From: Dictyostelium discoideum
Taxonomy: Eukaryota
Length of the DNA stretch: 64,000 bases
Direction of reading: 5' to 3'
NCBI GenBank assembly: GCA_000004695.1
Contig: CM000151.3
Location: 5,024,001-5,088,000, forward strand
Shown here: in pieces, positions 1,497 through 59,066 of the stretch
Layout of the letters: each line of letters begins with the position of its first letter
Numbering within the stretch: the first letter of the stretch is position 1
The notes under the pieces: generated by a model
Told to the model about the DNA's origin: nothing
The model's database searches: none
What the model saw: only the letters and a program-made list of their open reading frames with translations
Translations under genes and position numbers: made by a program

Positions 1497-2093
1497 TATA
1501 AAAAAACACAAAAGATATTTTTTAGGGGTGGCATGAAATATTTAAAAATAAAGCGAAAAAAAAAAGTAAGGGTTTGTCTTTATTTTAAAAGAAATTGAAA
1601 AAATCAAAAAAACAATTTAATTGATTGGAGTGACGAGAAACCCTGACAACTAAGGAAAAAAAAAACCGATTTTTCCTGATTTCCAAAGCGACCATATCAA
1701 AATTGAGAAAAATTTTTTAAAAAAAAAAAAAAAATTTTATAAAAAATAAATAAAATTTTTTTGATTGGAATGTGCAACGATTCTAAAAAAAAAAAAAATA
1801 TAAACAAATTAAAATATTTATAAATATTTTAAGTCTTAAAATGTTTTTTTTTTGATTTTTTTTGATTTTTTTTTTTTTGAATTTTTTTTTTTGGATGGTT
1901 GGGGGTGGATTAAAAAAAATGAGTTTAACCTTTTGTAAAATTAAGAAAGAAATACTTACTCTCTTAACAAAACAAAAAAAAACAAAAAAATAAAAAAAAA
2001 TAAAAAAATAAAAAAACAATAATAAAAAAAATAATAATAATAAAAAAAAAAAAAATATATAACAAATAAATAAATATAACAAATAAATAAATA

Positions 2094-2165
<72 letters not shown>

Positions 2166-3462
2166 ATTTATTATATATATATATATATATAATATAAATA
2201 AATTTTTTTTTTTTTTTTTAATATACATACCAAAAACAGATGGATCATTTGTATTCCAACCTAATGCTCTTGAACTTTGAGTATGATTATATTCAGTTGT
2301 AAAATATTGTACAGTTGTACTATTAAGATATTGAGAATTTGCTTCAGCAAACATTAAAGAGTACATGAAAATCCACATTTCTTCAACATTTGAGAATACA
2401 CCAGCATGACCACTGATACCACCTAATGCATAAGCATTACCATCAGAAACAACACCTTGAATTGTGGTATGCATATAAACTGTATCATTTTCAGTTGGTG
2501 CACATTGTGGAGCTAAATATTGTGGTGGTAAATAATTTGTGACATTTAAATTCAATGCATTGAAAACATAGTGTCTTACGTATGCTTCGTAGTAGCATTG
2601 AGCATTTTCAGGTGCACCATTATCACAACCTGGTGTTAACTGATCCGCAGTGATGTAATTAAACTGTTTAGCTAAATTACCAACTACATACATTAATGTC
2701 ATGAAATTTAAATCACTATATACATAAGTTGAACCAATTGGGTTCATTAATGATTGATTTAAAATTGATTGATAAATTTGACTTTGACATGTGAATTCCA
2801 TTGGTGGATAATATTCCTCGGTTGCTGGACAATTAAATTCTGCTGTATTCCAAAATGGATTTGGGTCTGGATAAAATCCTGAATTATGTAATAAACAATT
2901 TCTAACTGAAATTCCACTCTTTCCATTAACTCCAAATTCTAATCCTAAAAAATCTGTAATTGGTGAATCTAAATTAAGTTCACCTCTTTGATAAAATTGT
3001 GCTACTGATGTTGTACATGCTGTAACTTTTGAGCAACTTGCCATATCAAATAATGTCTATTTTTTTTTTTTTTTTAAAATAATTTTTTTTTTTATTTTTT
3101 TAATTTTTATTTGTGAATAGAAAATAAATAAATAAATAAATAAAACTTACACTTAATTCCATTGGTGGTACTTTAAAATCATTAATTGGAGTACCAATAC
3201 CATAAGTGAAACTACCTTTTGCAGAGGCATATAAGACACCTTTTTGATTACCAACTAAAGCAACACAACCTGGAAAAGTACCATTTTCAATTGCTTCTTC
3301 TAAAAATGTATCAACTTCTGACCAAGTTTCATCTGATGGATATCTAACTTGTTGATTATTTAATCTTGGTACATCAATTTTAGATTTAATTGGTGATTTT
3401 AAACTAACAACACAACCAATAATTACAATAAAAAATATTAAAAGTATATTTAAATATTTCAT
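1157..3462 (-). CDS. Beta-lactamase-family serine hydrolase with signal peptide, 3 exons. Exons on the minus strand are 3462..3151, 3056..2231 and 1374..1157.
   Basis: The N-terminus is hydrophobic (MKYLNILLIFFIVIIGCVV). The S-x-x-K motif 'ASCSKV' sits at the exon1/exon2 junction. The C-terminus 'LLTNRVYPD' is typical of beta-lactamase/esterase-family proteins. Donors are GTAAGT at 3150 and GTATGT at 2230. Acceptors are ..atag at 3057 and ..ttag at 1375. Phases are consistent (0, then 1). Confidence 0.8.
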
Positions 3463-3497
3463 TTTTTTTATTTTTATTACTCTATCAATAATAATTT

Positions 3498-3535
<38 letters not shown>

Positions 3536-48460: not shown

Positions 48461-48777
48461 CTTACTCAACATTATAATGATCAGAACTACATAATGTACA
48501 AACTTTAATATTATAAATATGTGGTGAAACTTCATTTTCTATATCCCAAGAGACCAAGTATGAAATTGGATCTTGACCTTGAACATCATTTATATACATT
48601 GGTGGCAATGTTAAACTATAATGAGTACTTATAATTGATTCTTCATAATATAATGGTAATTGTTGAATTATTTTACCACTTTTAGATAAAGATGATGATG
48701 ATGATGATTTTATTTGTTGACGTTGATTTTGTAGTTGTTGTTTTTGTTGTTGTTGTTGTTGTTGTTGTTTAAAACCT

Positions 48778-48809
<32 letters not shown>

Positions 48810-49957
48810 TTTATCATTTACTTCAACAACACCATTATTATCTTGATTATCTTCATTCACTTGATTACCTTGATTATCTTCATTTTCATTATTTTCATTA
48901 TTATCACCATCATTATCATTATCATCATTTTGATGATCATTTTCAAATTGTTTGGTTATAATTGTTGTAGTTGTACGTATTGAATATAAATTTAAGAAAA
49001 ATAAAGATTCTTCTTTTAACCAATTTGCCCAGATTGAAATGATTGGTAAGTTGATATTAGTATTCCAAAGTGTAATTAATTGATTTGATAATGTACACAA
49101 ACAATTTTCACTTAACCAATCACATTCTAATTTGAAAAATTCTAAACTTGAAAGGAGTGGATAATCATCATTATATTTAAAAGTTAAAAAAATTGGTGGT
49201 AATTTTGAAACAGTGCAATAATCTTCAAAATTTTCATTCTCTAATAATTTTGTTGTAAAAGAACTTAATCCAATTCTATCTGCTGGCAAATCGAATGATA
49301 AACATAACTTTTGTTGTTTTTTTTTTAAAAAAGAAAAAAAAAAAAAAAAGTTGATTTGTTTTGTATTGAGTCGAAGGGTGATTTTGTAGTTTTGTGGTTT
49401 CGGATGTTTAAAAAAAAAATAAAAAAAAAAAAAAAATAAAAAAAAATTGTAGTTTGTTGTGTTTGATTGATTGCGTGAGTGGGTGAGTGGTAAAAAAAAA
49501 AAAAGTATGAGTTTTATATTTTTATTTTTAGAATCTAACCACACTTTCCAATTTTTTTTTTTTTTTTTTTTTTTTTTTGTAAAATGATTGATTCGAATTG
49601 AATTTAAAATTAATTAATTTAAAAAAAAAAAATAAAAAGATAAAATATATATTTTTATTTACATACCCTATAACATCTATCAGTGTTTTTTATTATGAGA
49701 AAATTATTTCTATATAATTGTTTTAAAGTATAAATTTCATTTTGTTGTAATGTTTTAATTAAATCGCTTATAATTTTATCTTGAAGTAAAGAATTTTTTC
49801 TACTTCTTGTTTTTATTTCCCCTGGTGATTCATGTTGTAATGGTTGTTGATCATCATAAAATTGTTGATTATTATAATATAATTGTTCATTTATTTGTTT
49901 TTGATTTATTTGAGTATGATTATGATTGTGTTTACCTTTTGATTTATAATGTTCCAT
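48046..49957 (-). CDS. RWD-domain plus RING-type zinc-finger protein (RNF14/RBR-like N-terminal architecture, ending inside an IBR-like Cys/His cluster), 3 exons: 49957..49667, 49307..48466 and 48361..48046 on the minus strand.
   Basis: The exon 1/2 junction 'LQQNEIYTLKQLYRNNFLIIKNTDRCYR|LCLSFDLPADR...KYNDDYPLLSSLEFFKLECDWLSENC' has the RWD fold pattern. The RING reads 'CTLCSSDHYNV|DFINIFNCNHNFCQECLSAY' across intron 2, then 'ICPDQDCQ...CEHCDQ' (IBR-like) with stop at 48046. Donors are GTATGT at 49666 and GTAAGT at 48465 (phase 2). Acceptors are ..caaaag and ..ttaaag. Confidence 0.6.
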
Positions 49958-51840: not shown

Positions 51841-51987
51841 TTATGGGGTAATTCTATCTTTTGTACGTTGGTAAACACAAACATTACGAATATGTTCTTC
51901 TTTGAGCATCCAAGTAAGGAAACGTTCAACACCTGTTTTTTAAAAATAGAAAATTGAAAATAAAAATATTAATAAAAAAACAATGAA

Positions 51988-52046
<59 letters not shown>

Positions 52047-54052
52047 TAAAATATATATTTACCTAAACCATAACCACCATGTTGAGTAGTACCATATTTA
52101 CGTTGATCAGTGAACCAATAATATTCATCAGTATCAAGACCAGCTTTTTTATAAGCTGCAACCAATTCATTGAAATCTGAAATTCTCATAGAACCACCAA
52201 CGATTTCACCAACACCTGGCATTAAGAGATCAAGAGATTCAGTGAGAGTTCTATCTTCTGGACATCTAGCCATGTAGAAAGCTTTCATTTCAGCAGGGAA
52301 TCTACAGAGGAAGATTGGTTCACCGATTTGATCATTCATTCTTCTTTCTTGAGCCTCTGGAATATCATCACCAAATTCGAAATCGACTTCAGTACCATCT
52401 TCAAGTTTCTTTTGGATACCATTCTTTTTACAATATTCGATAGCATCGGAATAGTTCATTCTCATGAATGGTCTCTTTGGTACTTTAAAGTCTGGATTGA
52501 CAGAGAGGATCAATTCTGGGTCCATTTTGAAGAGTTTTTCACAAACATCGACAACCAAGAATTCGATACGATCTTGAAGTTCCTCGTAGGTGATGAATGG
52601 ACATTCAGCTTCCAAATGTAAAAACTCGGTTAAATGACGACGAGTACGAGCCTTTTCAGCACGATAACTTTGAGTGATGGTGAAATTGTCACCGAGTACT
52701 GGTAACATAGTTTCGAGGTATAATTGTGATGATTGAGTGAGATAGGCTGGTTTACCAAAGTAGTCGACGGTGAAGAGTTCAGAACCACCTTCACAGTAGG
52801 TGTTTACGAGGGTTGGTGGAGTGACTTCCATATAATGATTTTCGAAAAAGTGTTGACGGAATGCAAACAAACATAATGAACGAATCTTCATGATGGATGA
52901 GGCACGAGTACCTCTCATCATGATATGACGTTGGTCGAATAAATGATCGACGTTTGATTCTTGATTGATAACACCCTCTAAATCGGCATTACTTGGTCCT
53001 AATAATTCCCAGTAGTCTGCTTGGAGCTCGACGCCACCTGGACACTTCTTATCGGCTGGTGGAATCACCAAGGTACCAACAATCTTTACAGTGGCTTCAC
53101 GTAATAATTTATCAATGATTGATGGATGAACCAAGTCACCTGATAAAACACATTGAAGGAAACCAGTACCATCACGTAACTCTAAAAATACAATCTTCTT
53201 TTGATTTCTAACATGATGTGCCCATGCATGAACTTCAACACGTTGATTGGCAAATTTTGGTGAACATTCTCTAATCTTTAATCTCTTTGGTGTTGGTAAG
53301 CTTGCATCTTGTTTCAATGTAATTGCTGCTAATTGCTCTTCAATCTTTTTAACTGGTGCAGTGGTTGTTGCTGCTACTTTCTTTTCTTTAGCTTCAACAA
53401 CTTTTGGTCCTAATGTTGTCTCTAATTTTTTATCTAACATTATTTTAACTTCTTTTAAATCTGCCCATTTTAATGATTCTTTTAATGGATTTAATAAATC
53501 ACCAATTGGTATATGCCATCTTTTATTTAAAAATAATCCAATCAAAATAAAAATAAAAAATAAAAATAAAAAATATTGATGTGGTGTGTTAATAATTTTG
53601 TTTTTTTTTTTTTTTTAAAAAAAAATTTTTAATTTATACTTTTTTTCAGAAATTTCAGTAGCTTTTTTAGTGAATAAATCATCAATAGCTTTTTGAATTT
53701 GTTCTGGTGTGATGACAACACCAACACCACAAAAATCGTTAAATGTATCTTGATTGAATTCTTTGTTATCTTTTAAGTATTGAGTTGCAGCTTGGAATTG
53801 AATGGTGGTTTTAATTTTTTCTTCACCAATTGCTTTTGAAACGTTTGAACGAATTGGTGAGTTTACTTGTTGACAAGTTGCTAAACTATATAAAAGGTTA
53901 CCAATTGATTTATCACAACCTTTTGAAACGGATGCTTCTTCAATAATGGTTTTTAATAATGCAGTAAGATCTTTATTTTTTAAAGTATCTTTTGCTCTCT
54001 TTTCATCTAATCCAATTGAAAGGAATAATTTTTGATCTTCTTCTGTTGACAT
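51841..54052 (-). CDS. asnS: Asparaginyl-tRNA synthetase (class IIb, cytoplasmic type) with an N-terminal GlnRS/GatB(YqeY)-type appended domain, 3 exons: 54052..53640, 53519..52063 and 51932..51841 on the minus strand. About 653 aa.
   Basis: The core closely matches eukaryotic AsnRS: 'ITLKQDASLPTPKRLKI', 'FLELRDGTGFLQCVL', 'FTITQSYRAEKARTRRHLTEFLHLEAE' (motif 2), 'GGYGLG|VERFLTWM' (motif 3, split by the last intron, donor GTAAAT at 52062, phase 1). Exon 1 is 'MSTEEDQKLFLSIGLDEKRAKDTLKNKDLTALLKTII...GVGVVITPEQIQ...'. The start of exon 2, '...LKESLKWADLKEVKIMLDKKLETTLGPK', aligns with the yeast GlnRS N-terminal domain ('ELTQLFSQVGFEDKKVKEIVKNKKVS...LKELKWADPRSFKPIIDQEVLKLLGPK'). Donor GTATAA at 53639 (phase 2); acceptor aaataaaag at 53521-53520. 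Confidence 0.85.
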
Positions 54053-54944: not shown

Positions 54945-56368
54945 TTATTTTAAAGATAAAACTTTATTTTTAACTAAATCATATTGTTTAAAACGTTTAA
55001 TAGCATAATCTATGTAATCAAAATCGATTGAAGAAGAGAAATGTTGAATTATACCCCAAAATCCCCACATTAAATGAGAACCTAATGTTAAGTGATTTGA
55101 TTCGATATAAAGATTATGAATTTCTTCTTTACTTGGTTCATATAATAATTCATCATTTTCAATATCCATATTTTCATCGTTGATACTATTTTGAATTTGT
55201 TGTTGTTGTTGTTTTTGTTTTTGTTTTTGTTGAATATTTTTACAATTATTAATTGAAATTAAATAATTTTTAATAAATCTTTTTTGAATTTCAATTGATG
55301 GATATTTTGTATAGTCTAAATCTAAACCAGAGAATTCACAAAAGAAATTACCAATATCATAACCTCTAAAATTGTAACCAGAATATTCGAAATCAATAAA
55401 TTTAACTTGACCCTTCTCTTTATTGTAAATCATATTTCTTGGTATTAAATCGTTATGACAAAAGTTGATATACTCTTCACCACTATAATGTTCTTCAATG
55501 AAGGACATTAAAGACATTGCTTCCTCTTTATAACGGTTTAAATTAATCTTTGAGATCATTGAACCCTTTGATTCCTTTGATGTTAATGTCATTGCATTAT
55601 TTATCCATGAATTTAAATTTTTAAATAATGATGTTGAAGATGTTTGTGTATTCATATTTCTTGGTGATAATGTTGAATTTTCTAATGATGGAGAAGTTGA
55701 TGGAGAAGTTGATGATGTTGATGTTGATGTTGATGTTGATGTTGATATTGTTGTTGATTCTTTAATAGACGAATCAGATGATGAAGATAATAATAATTGT
55801 GAATTTGAATTAATATCTAATTTAAGTGAATGCCATCTACCAGTTTCTTTTGCAATTAATGAGAGTATATTATTTTGATATAAATCCTCTAATTGTAATT
55901 GATCACCTTCAACATAACCATAGATACATCCATTTTCAAATGTACCATAAAATTTTGGACCAACTCCATTCTTACTTAATAAATATTGAATGTTTGCCTC
56001 AGTTTTTCTATCTATAAATTGTTCTGATCCTTTACCATATAATCTTATAATAACACTCTTATTACTACCTTGTCCTGTAATAAATGATGATTTAAATAAT
56101 GTATTTGTTACTCCACCGACCATTGGTTTAAATTCTATCTCTTCTTTTAAGTTATTATCAACCAATTCTTTTAAAATTTGACTATAAAAAAAAAAAAAAA
56201 AATTAATAAGTTAGTAAAAGAATTTTTAAAAAAAAAAAATTATTTTATAAATAATATTTACACCAAATTTAAATAATTTTCATTATTTTCAATATTTTCA
56301 TCTTCAAATTCAATATTTGTAGTAACATGTGATGGACCTGGATAAATAATATCTTCAAACTCGTTCAT
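54945..56368 (-). CDS. Choline/ethanolamine kinase, 2 exons: 56368..56262 and 56181..54945 on the minus strand.
   Basis: Exon 1 is 'MNEFEDIIYPGPSHVTTNIEFEDENIENNENYLNL' with donor GTAAAT at 56261 (phase 2). Acceptor tatag at 56183-56182. Exon 2 'VQILKELVDNNLKEEIEFKPMVGGVTNTLFK' is the choline-kinase N-terminal pattern. Brenner motif 'FCHNDLIPRNMIY' and choline-kinase motif 'IDFEYSGYNFRGYDIGNFFCEFSG' follow. S/T- and Q-rich inserts are present. Confidence 0.75.
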
Positions 56369-57462: not shown

Positions 57463-57710
57463 CTAAAATACTAAAACACCTGCACTCCCCACCCTAATTG
57501 AATCATCACCAGCACTTTTATCTAAATTATATTCATCTTGATCATCATCACGATCATCATCACTAATTATTGATTGTTTTTTAAATACACTTAATAAATT
57601 ATTTTTACTTTCATCAAAACCACTATCATCAGCACCATAATCATCAGCACCACCACCATAACTGTTTCGTATATTAATAATACTCGAATTAATACTTTCA
57701 TTTCTATTTA

Positions 57711-57774
<64 letters not shown>

Positions 57775-57882
57775 GTTATTATTATCATCATCAGTTTGTG
57801 AAATTATTGATGTTGAAACTATAATTTTACTAAATGAATTTTCAGATGACGAATGTGAAATCGAATTTGATATTATATCACC

Positions 57883-57923
<41 letters not shown>

Positions 57924-59066
57924 CAATTGAATGTGGAGGTAATTCAATTGACCCATTATTTATATCGTATTGTTGTTTTTCATATTTATATAATGCATCT
58001 TTTTTATTCTCTCTATATTTTGATACCATGACAGCACCAACACCAAATAAAATTACAAAACCACCTACAATATTTAATGGAGTTAATATTTCACTTAAGA
58101 AAATGTAAGCCAACACTCCAGTCAATAGTGGTTCCACTGTGAGATACACAGATACAGTGGTAGAATCACTTTTTGCAACAGCCCAACTTGATGCAAAAAA
58201 TGCATATGCAGTTGCAAATATCGCACAATATATAACAGATAACCAACCAAATAATGAAATTTGAGCAACTTGTGAACTAATTTCACTTTTTGCAATAAGC
58301 AATGCAATTGCTATCACTGGTGGTGTACCAATTGTAAATGACCATGCCATACATTTTGATGCACTCATACCACCATCATCAATCAATGGTTTTTGTGATA
58401 ATAAAAATATAGCATATGCCAATGTGTTTCCTAAAAAACATAAATTACCAAATAAAATATTATTCCTATTTGAATCATTTGATTTCAAATGTGTGAAATC
58501 TACCATCAACACTGCACCAATCACTGCAATTGCAACACCTATACTATAATAATAAAAATAATAAAAAAATTAATAAATTATTTTTTATTTTTTTATCAAA
58601 ACACACACACACACACACGGACATACAATTTTAATTTTGTTTTTCTTTCAAATTTTAATAATACAGCAAGGATTGCACTGAATACTGGGGTTAGGGGTTG
58701 AACGATTGCAGCATTAGTGGCACCACTGAGATAGAGACCGTAGAGGAATAATGATTGATTTATAGTTACTGAAAATATTCCAGATATTGATAATAATATA
58801 AATTCTTTTTTTGTTGGTAATTTAAATACTGTGTCTGGTGATAATATTATTGCCATTAACCAAAGTAATGGTGTTGCAATAACTAATCTAAACATTAAAA
58901 ATACGAATGGTGGTATATTATCCATTGCTAATTTTGCAACTATATAAAATACTGAAAATACTAAACATACTGATAATAATACTAAATGAACTTTTAAATC
59001 TTCAAATGTAATTCCTTTTATAGTTTTTTTTATTCTTGTTTTTAATGAGAAATCCATTTTAACCAT
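57463..59066 (-). CDS. EamA/drug-metabolite-transporter (DMT) superfamily membrane protein, 2 exons: 59066..58627 and 58543..57463 on the minus strand.
   Basis: About ten predicted TM helices in two EamA-like halves ('LLSVCLVFSVFYIVAKLAM', 'GATNAAIVQPLTPVFSAILAVLL' | 'IGVAIAVIGAVLMV', 'LGNTLAYAIFLLSQK', 'VEPLLTGVLAYIFLSEILT'). Donor GTATGT at 58626 (phase 2) and acceptor ttattatag at 58545-58544. The intron contains an (AC)9 microsatellite. The cytoplasmic C-tail has long poly-Asn tracts. Confidence 0.75.
58601..58618. repeat. (AC)9 dinucleotide microsatellite in the intron of the DMT transporter gene.
   Basis: Direct reading gives acacacacacacacacac. It is unusual in this AT-rich context. 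Confidence 0.85.

What the first reader, a model, noticed from the sequence alone, without database searches (positions are those of the whole stretch)
51841..54052. Asparaginyl-tRNA synthetase carrying a GlnRS/GatB-type N-terminal appended domain
The class II AsnRS core is preceded, through a phase-2 intron, by about 170 aa that align with the N-terminal appended domain of eukaryotic class I GlnRS (yeast Gln4 'ELTQLFSQVGFEDKKVKEIVKNKKVS...' versus 'EDQKLFLSIGLDEKRAKDTLKNKDLT...'). Across the splice, 'LKELKWADPRSFKPIIDQEVLKLLGPK' aligns with 'LKESLKWADLKEVKIMLDKKLETTLGPK'. The GlnRS N-terminal domain is a GatB/YqeY-like tRNA-binding module. Having it on AsnRS, the other synthetase that replaced the tRNA-dependent transamidation route, would be a notable case of domain sharing between a class I and a class II synthetase. 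The alignment continuing across the predicted splice junction argues for a single gene. The spliced product is about 653 aa.
Basis: partly seen in the sequence, partly recalled or inferred. Interest (0 to 1): 0.6.

Follow-up and report, generated by a model that had tools for sequence, protein, structure and literature searches.

The report
AsnRS carrying a GlnRS-type N-terminal domain
This is the already-annotated Dictyostelium discoideum cytosolic asparaginyl-tRNA synthetase gene, which really does carry the tRNA-binding N-terminal domain normally seen on glutaminyl-tRNA synthetase; that fusion is published for trypanosomatid parasites, and I found no paper reporting it for amoebae.

Summary
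On the minus strand, three exons (54052-53640, 53519-52063, 51932-51841) splice through two GT..AG introns into a 653-aa protein. It is identical to D. discoideum XP_643772.1 / UniProt Q554D9, "Asparagine--tRNA ligase, cytoplasmic".

- **N-terminal domain (NTD).** Residues 4-158 match Pfam PF04558, the GlnRS N-terminal RNA-binding domain, at E 2.8e-50. The match runs across the splice at codon 138.
- **AsnRS body.** Residues 225-652 pass the asnS equivalog cut-off.
- **Functional residues.** The Gln4 residues shown to matter for tRNA binding (GVG hinge, Trp) are conserved here as G109-V110-G111 and W156.
- **One gene.** The intron sits at the same codon in Cavenderia. It is absent in Heterostelium and in the intronless Diplonema gene. 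Ortholog transcripts are continuous.
- **Distribution.** The architecture occurs in all listed dictyostelids, other Amoebozoa and Diplonema.

The fusion is already published for trypanosomatids (Parrot et al. 2021; a Leishmania major table in 2012). I therefore rate this a new member of a known kind. Unlike trypanosomatids, Dictyostelium GlnRS keeps its own NTD. The likely role, a flexibly tethered tRNA-affinity module, is inferred and not shown. Interest is modest.

The parts
53640..54052 (-). Exon 1 (413 nt): start codon at 54052-54050. Encodes aa 1-137 plus 2 nt of codon 138, that is the helical subdomain, the hinge and the start of the tail subdomain of the NTD.
   Evidence: 28.8% G+C against 8.6% in the 5' flank.
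53520..53639 (-). Intron 1: 120 nt, GTATAA...AAAAG, phase 2, between K137 and codon 138. Read-through meets a stop after ...EKKYKLKIFF.
   Evidence: 10% G+C. Cavenderia fasciculata has a 78-nt intron at the same codon and phase. Heterostelium album has no intron there.
52063..53519 (-). Exon 2 (1457 nt): rest of the NTD tail subdomain, the linker, the OB anticodon-binding domain and most of the class II catalytic core.
51933..52062 (-). Intron 2: 130 nt, GTAAAT...AACAG, phase 1, inside motif 3 (GYGL-G|VERF). Contains an 18-unit trinucleotide microsatellite.
   Evidence: This intron is absent in Cavenderia.
51841..51932 (-). Exon 3 (92 nt including the TAA stop): C-terminal 30 aa of the catalytic core.
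53729..54052 (-). NTD helical subdomain, aa 1-108 (seven helices).
   Evidence: AlphaFold model with pLDDT 93-98. PF04558 match. Matches the seven-helix Gln4(1-110) subdomain described in PMC3333875.
53720..53728 (-). Hinge G109-V110-G111, equivalent to Gln4 G112-V113-G114.
   Evidence: G109 and G111 are invariant and V110 is at least 90% conserved in 33 AsnRS-linked NTDs. In Gln4, mutating the hinge raises Km for tRNA about 10-fold.
53402..53707 (-). NTD tail subdomain, aa 116-177 (four helices). It spans intron 1 and includes W156 (53465-53467) and the LGPK motif.
   Evidence: W156 is at least 90% conserved. It is equivalent to Gln4 W160, which contacts G112 and is needed for stable tRNA binding.
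53267..53401 (-). Lys/Ala/Glu-rich linker, aa 178-222. aa 180-193 are predicted disordered, followed by a short helix at 193-202.
   Evidence: Full-length AlphaFold model: pLDDT below 50 for aa 180-193. Lowest conservation among orthologs.
53000..53239 (-). OB-fold anticodon-binding domain, aa 232-311.
   Evidence: PF01336, E 3.5e-12.
51862..52945 (-). Class IIb catalytic domain, aa 330-647 (interrupted by intron 2). Motif 2 region is QSYRAEKARTRRHLTEF and motif 3 region is GGYGLGVERF.
   Evidence: PF00152, E 1.8e-69. TIGR00457 asnS above its cut-off. Coordinates.

Best explanation
This is one three-exon gene, the D. discoideum cytosolic asparaginyl-tRNA synthetase. A canonical class IIb AsnRS (OB anticodon-binding domain plus catalytic core) is joined by a roughly 45-residue, partly disordered Lys-rich tether to a 177-residue all-helical domain. 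That domain is homologous to the N-terminal appended domain of eukaryotic GlnRS. It has a seven-helix subdomain, a GVG hinge and a four-helix tail subdomain, the same two-lobed module found at the C-terminus of GatB. Shown here: the gene structure, the homology, the predicted fold, conservation of the residues that matter for tRNA binding in yeast Gln4, and purifying selection across Amoebozoa. Inferred: the domain acts in cis as a low-specificity tRNA clamp that closes on the tRNA body and raises the enzyme's affinity for tRNA-Asn (lowers Km), as it does for tRNA-Gln in Gln4. In that role it would fill the niche taken in animals by the unrelated AsnRS_N/UNE-N extension.
For: - **Gene model.** The spliced product is exactly XP_643772.1/Q554D9.
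- **NTD homology.** PF04558 E 2.8e-50 across the splice. Human GlnRS E 4e-25 and yeast NTD E 7e-16.
- **Functional residues.** G109/G111 are invariant. V110, W156 and Y55 are at least 90% conserved in 33 AsnRS-linked NTDs. The equivalent Gln4 residues G112-G114 and W160 are required for tRNA binding, with a 10-fold Km effect (PMC3333875). Y55 aligns with human GlnRS Y57, the residue changed in the deposited Y57H mutant structure 4YE8.
- **Selection.** NTD identity within Dictyostelia is 57-72%, against 69-74% for the core.
- **Tether.** pLDDT is below 50 at aa 180-193.
- **One gene.** The intron position is conserved in Cavenderia. The exon is continuous in Heterostelium, and Diplonema has an intronless 670-aa ORF. 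Continuous Trinity transcripts exist in Phalansterium, Ceratiomyxa, Clastostelium and Vermistella.
- **AsnRS identity.** TIGR00457 scores 385 bits, above its 342.6 cut-off.
Against: No biochemical or transcript data for the Dictyostelium protein were available to me, so tRNA binding by this NTD is only an analogy with Gln4. The GlnRS NTD has also been implicated in multisynthetase-complex stability in humans. Parrot et al. suggest that the AsnRS-borne copy in trypanosomatids may have a distinct function. The class II AsnRS approaches tRNA differently from class I GlnRS, so the geometry by which a tethered NTD would reach tRNA-Asn is unknown. PF04557 (R2) is not detected in the Dictyostelium protein.
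Confidence: 0.65

Rival explanations
1. The NTD is mainly a protein-protein interaction module that docks AsnRS into a multisynthetase complex or onto another partner, rather than a tRNA-affinity module.
For: As summarised in PMC8319005, the human GlnRS NTD is needed to stabilise association of other multisynthetase-complex components. Human GlnRS crystallises in an ArgRS-GlnRS-AIMP1 subcomplex entry, 4R3Z, whose GlnRS chain includes the NTD sequence.
Against: AsnRS was not found in the T. brucei multisynthetase complex despite carrying this NTD (PMC8319005). The residues most conserved in the AsnRS-linked NTDs are the hinge and the Trp, which are tied to tRNA binding in Gln4. AsnRS is not listed among the eight synthetases of the mammalian complex (my own knowledge).
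Confidence: 0.18
2. The NTD is a specificity sensor rather than a general affinity clamp. Like the GatB tail, it would read a tRNA-Asn body feature such as the D-loop or variable loop and help reject tRNA-Asp or tRNA-Lys.
For: GatCAB acts on both tRNA-Gln and tRNA-Asn. The GatB tail is proposed to read the D-loop or variable loop (PMC2811023 abstract). GatB and YqeY are the nearest non-GlnRS folds.
Confidence: 0.1
3. There are two separate genes: a small upstream gene that ends at the in-frame stop inside 'intron 1', and an AsnRS that starts at the internal MLDKK methionine.
For: Read-through of intron 1 reaches a stop after 7 codons, and an in-frame Met exists downstream. The donor GTATAA is not the commonest Dictyostelium donor (my own knowledge).
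Against: This model would cut the tail subdomain in half, separating the hinge (exon 1) from its contact W156 (exon 2). The Pfam match is continuous across the junction. A GTAT-type donor and the same phase-2 position occur in Cavenderia. Heterostelium has no intron there, and the Diplonema gene is intronless. Orthologous transcripts are continuous. The intron is 10% G+C against 29-38% in the exons.
Confidence: 0.02

Closest known systems
Trypanosomatid AsnRS with the GlnRS-appended NTD (Parrot et al. 2021, J Biol Chem, PMC8319005; L. major LmjF.34.2340 listed with tRNA_synt_Ic_R1 in PMC3532385)
   Same: Same architecture: GlnRS-type NTD, then the AsnRS anticodon-binding domain, then the class II core. 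A euglenozoan relative, Diplonema papillatum, has it as an intronless ORF.
   Different: In trypanosomatids the GlnRS has lost the NTD, so the domain looks 'moved'. D. discoideum GlnRS P14325 is listed with a 185-aa NTD (PMC3333875), so in Dictyostelium both amide synthetases carry it. Trypanosomatid extensions are longer (about 235 aa, plus 220 aa more in some Leishmania) and their cores carry a 17-aa insertion. That insertion was not examined here. The authors called the arrangement trypanosomatid-specific, and the data here show it is not.
Eukaryotic GlnRS N-terminal domain (yeast Gln4 NTD, PDB 3TL4; human QARS1, PDB 4YE6)
   Different: Here it is attached to a class II, dimeric, OB-containing synthetase instead of a class I Rossmann-fold enzyme. 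The R2 Pfam model is not detected.
GatB C-terminal helical and tail domains, and YqeY (including the YqeY-like C-terminal extension of Deinococcus radiodurans GlnRS, PMC1865053)
   Same: All-helical, two-lobed tRNA-binding appendage associated with Asn/Gln-tRNA formation. These are the nearest non-GlnRS structural neighbours.
Metazoan AsnRS N-terminal extension (Pfam PF20917 AsnRS_N / UNE-N)
   Same: Same position in front of the AsnRS OB domain, and presumably the same general role as an appended tRNA-affinity or signalling module.
   Different: Not homologous. hhalign of 33 AsnRS-type NTDs against 17 metazoan N-extensions gives probability 0.1%. PF20917 and PF04558 are mutually exclusive among the 120 best AsnRS hits.

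Membership tests
Asparaginyl-tRNA synthetase (class IIb, eukaryotic/archaeal type) | Whole-protein match to the asnS equivalog model above its curated cut-off | tested here: met
   TIGR00457 scores 385 bits against a cut-off of 342.6. AspRS and LysRS models all fall below their cut-offs.
Asparaginyl-tRNA synthetase (class IIb, eukaryotic/archaeal type) | N-terminal OB-fold anticodon-binding domain followed by a class II catalytic core with motifs 2 and 3 | tested here: met
   PF01336 over aa 232-311 and PF00152 over aa 330-647, covering 304 of 308 model positions. QSYRAE...RRHLTEF and GGYGLGVERF are visible in the sequence. Human NARS1 8TC8 matches at E 3.5e-168.
Asparaginyl-tRNA synthetase (class IIb, eukaryotic/archaeal type) | Asn-specific aminoacylation of tRNA-Asn | not testable with these tools
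   Requires an enzyme assay.
GlnRS-type N-terminal appended domain (Pfam tRNA_synt_1c_R1/R2) | PF04558 (R1) above its gathering score | tested here: met
   170.9 bits against 28.6, over aa 4-158.
GlnRS-type N-terminal appended domain (Pfam tRNA_synt_1c_R1/R2) | PF04557 (R2) match | tested here: not met
   No hit at E <= 0.01 in the D. discoideum protein. Weak hits occur in Diplonema, P0070, P0188 and P0189. phmmer alignment to human GlnRS still extends to aa 188.
GlnRS-type N-terminal appended domain (Pfam tRNA_synt_1c_R1/R2) | Two all-helical subdomains joined by a conserved GVG hinge, which contacts a conserved Trp | tested here: met
GlnRS-type N-terminal appended domain (Pfam tRNA_synt_1c_R1/R2) | Binds tRNA and lowers Km(tRNA) of the attached synthetase | not testable with these tools
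   Shown only for yeast Gln4 (PMC3333875).
GatB / YqeY tRNA-binding domain | Sequence-profile membership (Pfam GatB_Yqey) | tested here: not met
   No such hit in the Pfam scan at E <= 0.01.
GatB / YqeY tRNA-binding domain | Structural similarity to the GatB helical and tail domains | tested here: inconclusive
Trypanosomatid-type 'relocated NTD' arrangement (Parrot et al. 2021) | NTD fused to the N-terminus of AsnRS | tested here: met
Trypanosomatid-type 'relocated NTD' arrangement (Parrot et al. 2021) | GlnRS of the same organism lacks the NTD | tested here: not met
   D. discoideum GlnRS P14325 is listed with a 185-aa NTD in PMC3333875. I could not retrieve the sequence to check it directly.
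Trypanosomatid-type 'relocated NTD' arrangement (Parrot et al. 2021) | [quoted passage not shown] | not tested

The most novel reading that the evidence does not exclude
The GlnRS-type (GatB-like) NTD may have been present on AsnRS as well as GlnRS in an early eukaryote, possibly the last eukaryotic common ancestor. Both synthetases that replaced the GatCAB transamidation route would then have inherited the same tRNA-Asn/tRNA-Gln-sensing module. AsnRS would later have lost it, or swapped it for UNE-N, in opisthokonts and other lineages. The presence of the fusion in both Amoebozoa (Amorphea) and Euglenozoa (Discoba) fits this reading, but it fits independent fusions or gene transfer equally well. 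My NTD and core trees cannot tell these apart (all-AsnRS NTD monophyly in 0 of 100 bootstraps, deep nodes below 30%).
Probability: 0.12. Interest if true: 0.6.

Novelty: new member of a known kind. Interest (0 to 1): 0.3.

Why it matters
The GlnRS N-terminal domain has been treated as unique to one synthetase family (PMC3333875), and its presence on AsnRS has been called trypanosomatid-specific (PMC8319005). This locus and its orthologs show the fusion is conserved across Amoebozoa (Dictyostelia, Protosporangiida, Variosea, Discosea), in a diplonemid and in many environmental transcripts. In Dictyostelium it coexists with an NTD-bearing GlnRS. That weakens any claim that the arrangement is parasite-specific, for example as a drug target. 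It also offers a genetically tractable, non-pathogenic organism for testing what a GatB-like tRNA module does on a class II scaffold. It does not change our picture of aminoacylation mechanisms.

Tried and rejected
- **Homology searches with the NTD alone.** A single-sequence search returned nothing. A 33-sequence profile search returned only short, fragment-length GlnRS pieces. The tool seems to favour targets of query-like length, so the domain census relied on the all-against-library HMMER search and the full-length search.
- **NTD tree.** A neighbour-joining tree with bootstrap on 39 AsnRS-linked and 45 GlnRS-linked NTDs did not resolve deep nodes. AsnRS-NTD monophyly was found in 0 of 100 replicates, and Dictyostelia had 97% support. 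Single versus multiple origin stays undecided.
- **AsnRS core tree.** A neighbour-joining tree of 34 NTD-bearing and 13 other AsnRS cores gave 50% support for the NTD/non-NTD split and a weak backbone, so it is uninformative.
- **Metazoan N-extension as a degenerate NTD tail.** A phmmer alignment hinted at this (KESLKW... against KENERW...). Profile-profile comparison rejected it, with probability 0.1%.
- **D. discoideum GlnRS NTD sequence.** I tried to obtain it from the supplement of PMC3333875, but none is held. A direct within-genome comparison of the two NTDs was therefore not possible.
- **Two-gene model.** Rejected; see the rival explanations.
- **Literature.** Searches for any paper linking Dictyostelium or Amoebozoa AsnRS to the GlnRS NTD found none.

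Full report
**What is in the sequence.**
The region is extremely AT-rich (window 20.8% G+C), with coding islands of 29-38% G+C. On the minus strand an ATG at 54052 opens a 413-nt exon ending at 53640. A 120-nt GT..AG intron follows (53639-53520, phase 2), then a 1457-nt exon (53519-52063). A 130-nt GT..AG intron comes next (52062-51933, phase 1), then a 92-nt terminal exon ending with TAA at 51841. An exact-sequence look-up shows that this protein is D. discoideum AX4 XP_643772.1 / EAL69912.1 / UniProt Q554D9, "Asparagine--tRNA ligase, cytoplasmic". Near-identical 649-653-aa proteins occur in D. citrinum, D. firmibasis and D. dimigraforme. The window is therefore Dictyostelium discoideum nuclear DNA, and the gene model is already public.

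**Domain content.**
Pfam finds three domains:

| Pfam model | Residues | E-value |
|---|---|---|
| PF04558, tRNA_synt_1c_R1 ([quoted passage not shown]) | 4-158 | 2.8e-50 |
| PF01336, OB anticodon-binding domain | 232-311 | 3.5e-12 |
| PF00152, class II D/K/N core | 330-647 | 1.8e-69 |

- PF04558 scores 170.9 bits against a cut-off of 28.6.
- NCBIfam assigns the C-terminal 430 residues to the asnS equivalog TIGR00457 (385 bits, cut-off 342.6). AspRS and LysRS models fall below their cut-offs.
- The best solved relatives of the core are human NARS1 (E 3.5e-168), Brugia AsnRS and Entamoeba AsnRS.
- The N-terminal 200 residues hit only GlnRS chains in the PDB. Human QARS1 gives E 4e-25 over aa 6-188. 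A fungal GlnRS and the yeast Gln4 NTD crystal chain 3TL4 give about 6e-16.
- The R1 match and these alignments run straight through the splice at codon 138.
- PF04557 (R2) is not detected in the Dictyostelium protein.

**Fold.**
I predicted the NTD structure from an alignment of 33 AsnRS-linked NTDs. The model has mean pLDDT 91.9. It shows seven helices in aa 3-108, an extended hinge at 109-115, four helices in 116-174, and no confident structure after about aa 178.

- Foldseek agrees: 3TL4 has TM 0.71/0.76 and GatB 9A6E_A has E 0.14.

The GatB/YqeY resemblance reported for Gln4 by Grant et al. (PMC3333875) is therefore reproduced, but only weakly. Homology to the GlnRS NTD is certain. The link to GatB is a structural resemblance and I do not count it as demonstrated membership. 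A full-length model (pLDDT 88) shows aa 180-193 below pLDDT 50. This fits a flexible tether between the NTD and the AsnRS body.

**Functional residues and selection.**
In yeast Gln4 the linker G112-V113-G114 and W160, which packs on G112, are the best-conserved NTD positions. Mutating them destabilises tRNA binding, and G112P raises Km(tRNA) 10-fold.

- In the 33 AsnRS-linked NTDs, G109 and G111 are invariant. V110, W156, Y55, G14, K25, G51, G144, G175 and P176 are at least 90% conserved.
- Y55 aligns with human Y57, the residue changed in the deposited Y57H mutant structure 4YE8.
- The hinge is encoded in exon 1 and its Trp partner in exon 2. Neither exon alone can encode a folded domain.
- Within Dictyostelia the NTD is 57-72% identical to the D. 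discoideum copy, against 69-74% for the catalytic body and 40-67% for the linker. The NTD is therefore under purifying selection comparable to that on the enzyme.

**One gene, not two.**
- The fused protein is the deposited RefSeq and UniProt model.
- Cavenderia fasciculata has a 78-nt intron at exactly the same codon and phase (...EEKK|WHIPMGD), also with a GTAT-type donor.
- In Heterostelium album, aa 15-338 are encoded in one uninterrupted frame, so there is no intron at this site.
- The Diplonema papillatum ortholog is a 2013-nt intronless ORF that translates to the 670-aa fusion.
- Trinity transcript ORFs from Phalansterium, Ceratiomyxa, Clastostelium and Vermistella are continuous fusions of 650-671 aa.

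**Distribution.**
A HMMER scan of 1.84 billion cluster representatives with the NTD found 459 hits at E <= 1e-3. Of the 150 listed, most are GlnRS or short fragments. Five 50%-identity representatives carry an AsnRS core.

The full-length search showed the PF04558+PF01336+PF00152 architecture in these taxa:

- every dictyostelid listed: D. purpureum, Tieghemostelium, Heterostelium, Acytostelium, Cavenderia and Synstelium
- Ceratiomyxa and Clastostelium (Protosporangiida)
- Phalansterium (Variosea)
- Vermistella (Discosea)
- an MMETSP "Gloeochaete" transcript, whose origin I did not verify
- Diplonema papillatum (Euglenozoa)
- about 30 unnamed, roughly 2-kb transcript-like environmental contigs

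Metazoan AsnRS instead carry PF20917. Profile-profile comparison shows that this metazoan N-domain is unrelated to the NTD (probability 0.1%). The Entamoeba AsnRS crystal chain (456 aa) has no NTD. That could reflect the construct used, so it is only a hint of loss in Archamoebae.

**Prior knowledge.**
Grant et al. 2012 describe the NTD only in GlnRS, and their introduction notes that several appended domains are each unique to a single synthetase family. However, Parrot et al. 2021 (PMC8319005) state that trypanosomatid AsnRSs have a roughly 235-aa N-terminal extension homologous to the GlnRS-appended NTD. They also report that trypanosomatid GlnRS lacks the NTD, and that AsnRS is nevertheless not in the T. 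brucei multisynthetase complex. A 2012 Leishmania major survey already lists AsnRS LmjF.34.2340 with a tRNA_synt_Ic_R1 domain. I found no paper mentioning the arrangement in Dictyostelium or any amoebozoan.

So the kind is known, the Dictyostelium gene and its Pfam domains are in databases, and what is new is modest. The arrangement is not trypanosomatid-specific. It is ancient within Amoebozoa. In Dictyostelium it coexists with an NTD-bearing GlnRS: P14325 is listed with a 185-aa NTD.

**Mechanism.**
- **Shown:** the architecture, the fold, the conserved hinge and Trp, the flexible tether, and the selection on the NTD.
- **Inferred (about 0.65):** the NTD is a cis-acting tRNA clamp that raises the affinity of AsnRS for tRNA-Asn, by analogy with Gln4.
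- **Rivals:** a protein-docking role (about 0.18), a tRNA-specificity sensor like the GatB tail (about 0.1), and separate genes (about 0.02).

**Origin.**
Whether the AsnRS-linked NTDs arose once or several times is unresolved. Neighbour-joining trees of the NTD and of the AsnRS core have no deep support. The D. discoideum NTD is about as similar to plant and jakobid GlnRS NTDs (36-39%) as it is to non-eumycetozoan AsnRS NTDs such as Vermistella (33-40%).

**Verdict.**
The gene is already annotated, and the architecture is already described in another eukaryotic lineage. I rate it a new member of a known kind, with an interest score of 0.3.

Noticed in passing
window 51988-52041 (inside intron 2 of the AsnRS gene): An 18-unit perfect trinucleotide microsatellite, (AAT)n on the + strand and (ATT)n on the gene strand, fills much of the 130-nt intron. 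The intron is only 5.4% G+C.
   Followed up: partly
L002 (Diplonema papillatum JAPJBO010000236.1) 1065-1208, upstream of the AsnRS ORF at 1501-3513: A 95.8%-identical copy of the first 48 codons of the AsnRS NTD lies about 300 nt upstream of the real start, in another frame. Weaker fragments lie at 707-827. This may be a partial tandem duplication or an assembly artefact.
   Followed up: no
P0061 (ENA metagenome protein, 1100 aa, 17-kb contig): A predicted protein combines a GlnRS-type NTD (aa 77-233, PF04558 E 2e-37) with a TonB-dependent receptor beta-barrel (aa 487-1063). It is most likely a chimeric assembly or gene call, but it is an odd eukaryote-type domain next to a bacterial outer-membrane domain.
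   Followed up: no
Environmental AsnRS proteins P0087, P0192, P0193, P0205, P0206, P0211, P0215, P0236 (NTD region): A well-supported subgroup of NTD-bearing AsnRS (bootstrap 81-100) has a shortened tail subdomain. It lacks the segment equivalent to D. discoideum aa 131-142 and the LGPK motif, but keeps the GVG hinge and the Trp. Their organisms are unknown.
   Followed up: partly
L003 (Heterostelium album GL291010.1) against L001 (Cavenderia fasciculata) and the window: Intron content of the orthologous AsnRS gene varies among dictyostelids. Intron 1 is shared by Dictyostelium and Cavenderia and absent in Heterostelium. Heterostelium has other introns, near codons 1-15 and 338. Dictyostelium intron 2 is absent in Cavenderia.
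   Followed up: partly
window 54945-56165 (-), 57463-58524 (-), 48462-49544 (-): Neighbouring ORFs encode a choline/ethanolamine kinase (PF01633, E 4e-92), an EamA-family transporter with long poly-Asn tracts, and an RWD-domain protein with poly-Asn and poly-Gln tracts. These are ordinary Dictyostelium genes with no evident link to the AsnRS gene.
   Followed up: partly
PDB chain 3M4P_A (Entamoeba histolytica AsnRS, 456 aa): This amoebozoan AsnRS chain aligns only to the core (query aa 213-653) and has no NTD. That suggests loss in Archamoebae, unless the crystallised construct was truncated.
   Followed up: no
Tool behaviour: the search for homologous proteins with a 200-217-aa domain query missed all full-length AsnRS and GlnRS proteins, including the query's own cluster. 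It returned only proteins of similar short length. Negative results from domain-length queries with this tool should not be read as absence.
   Followed up: yes
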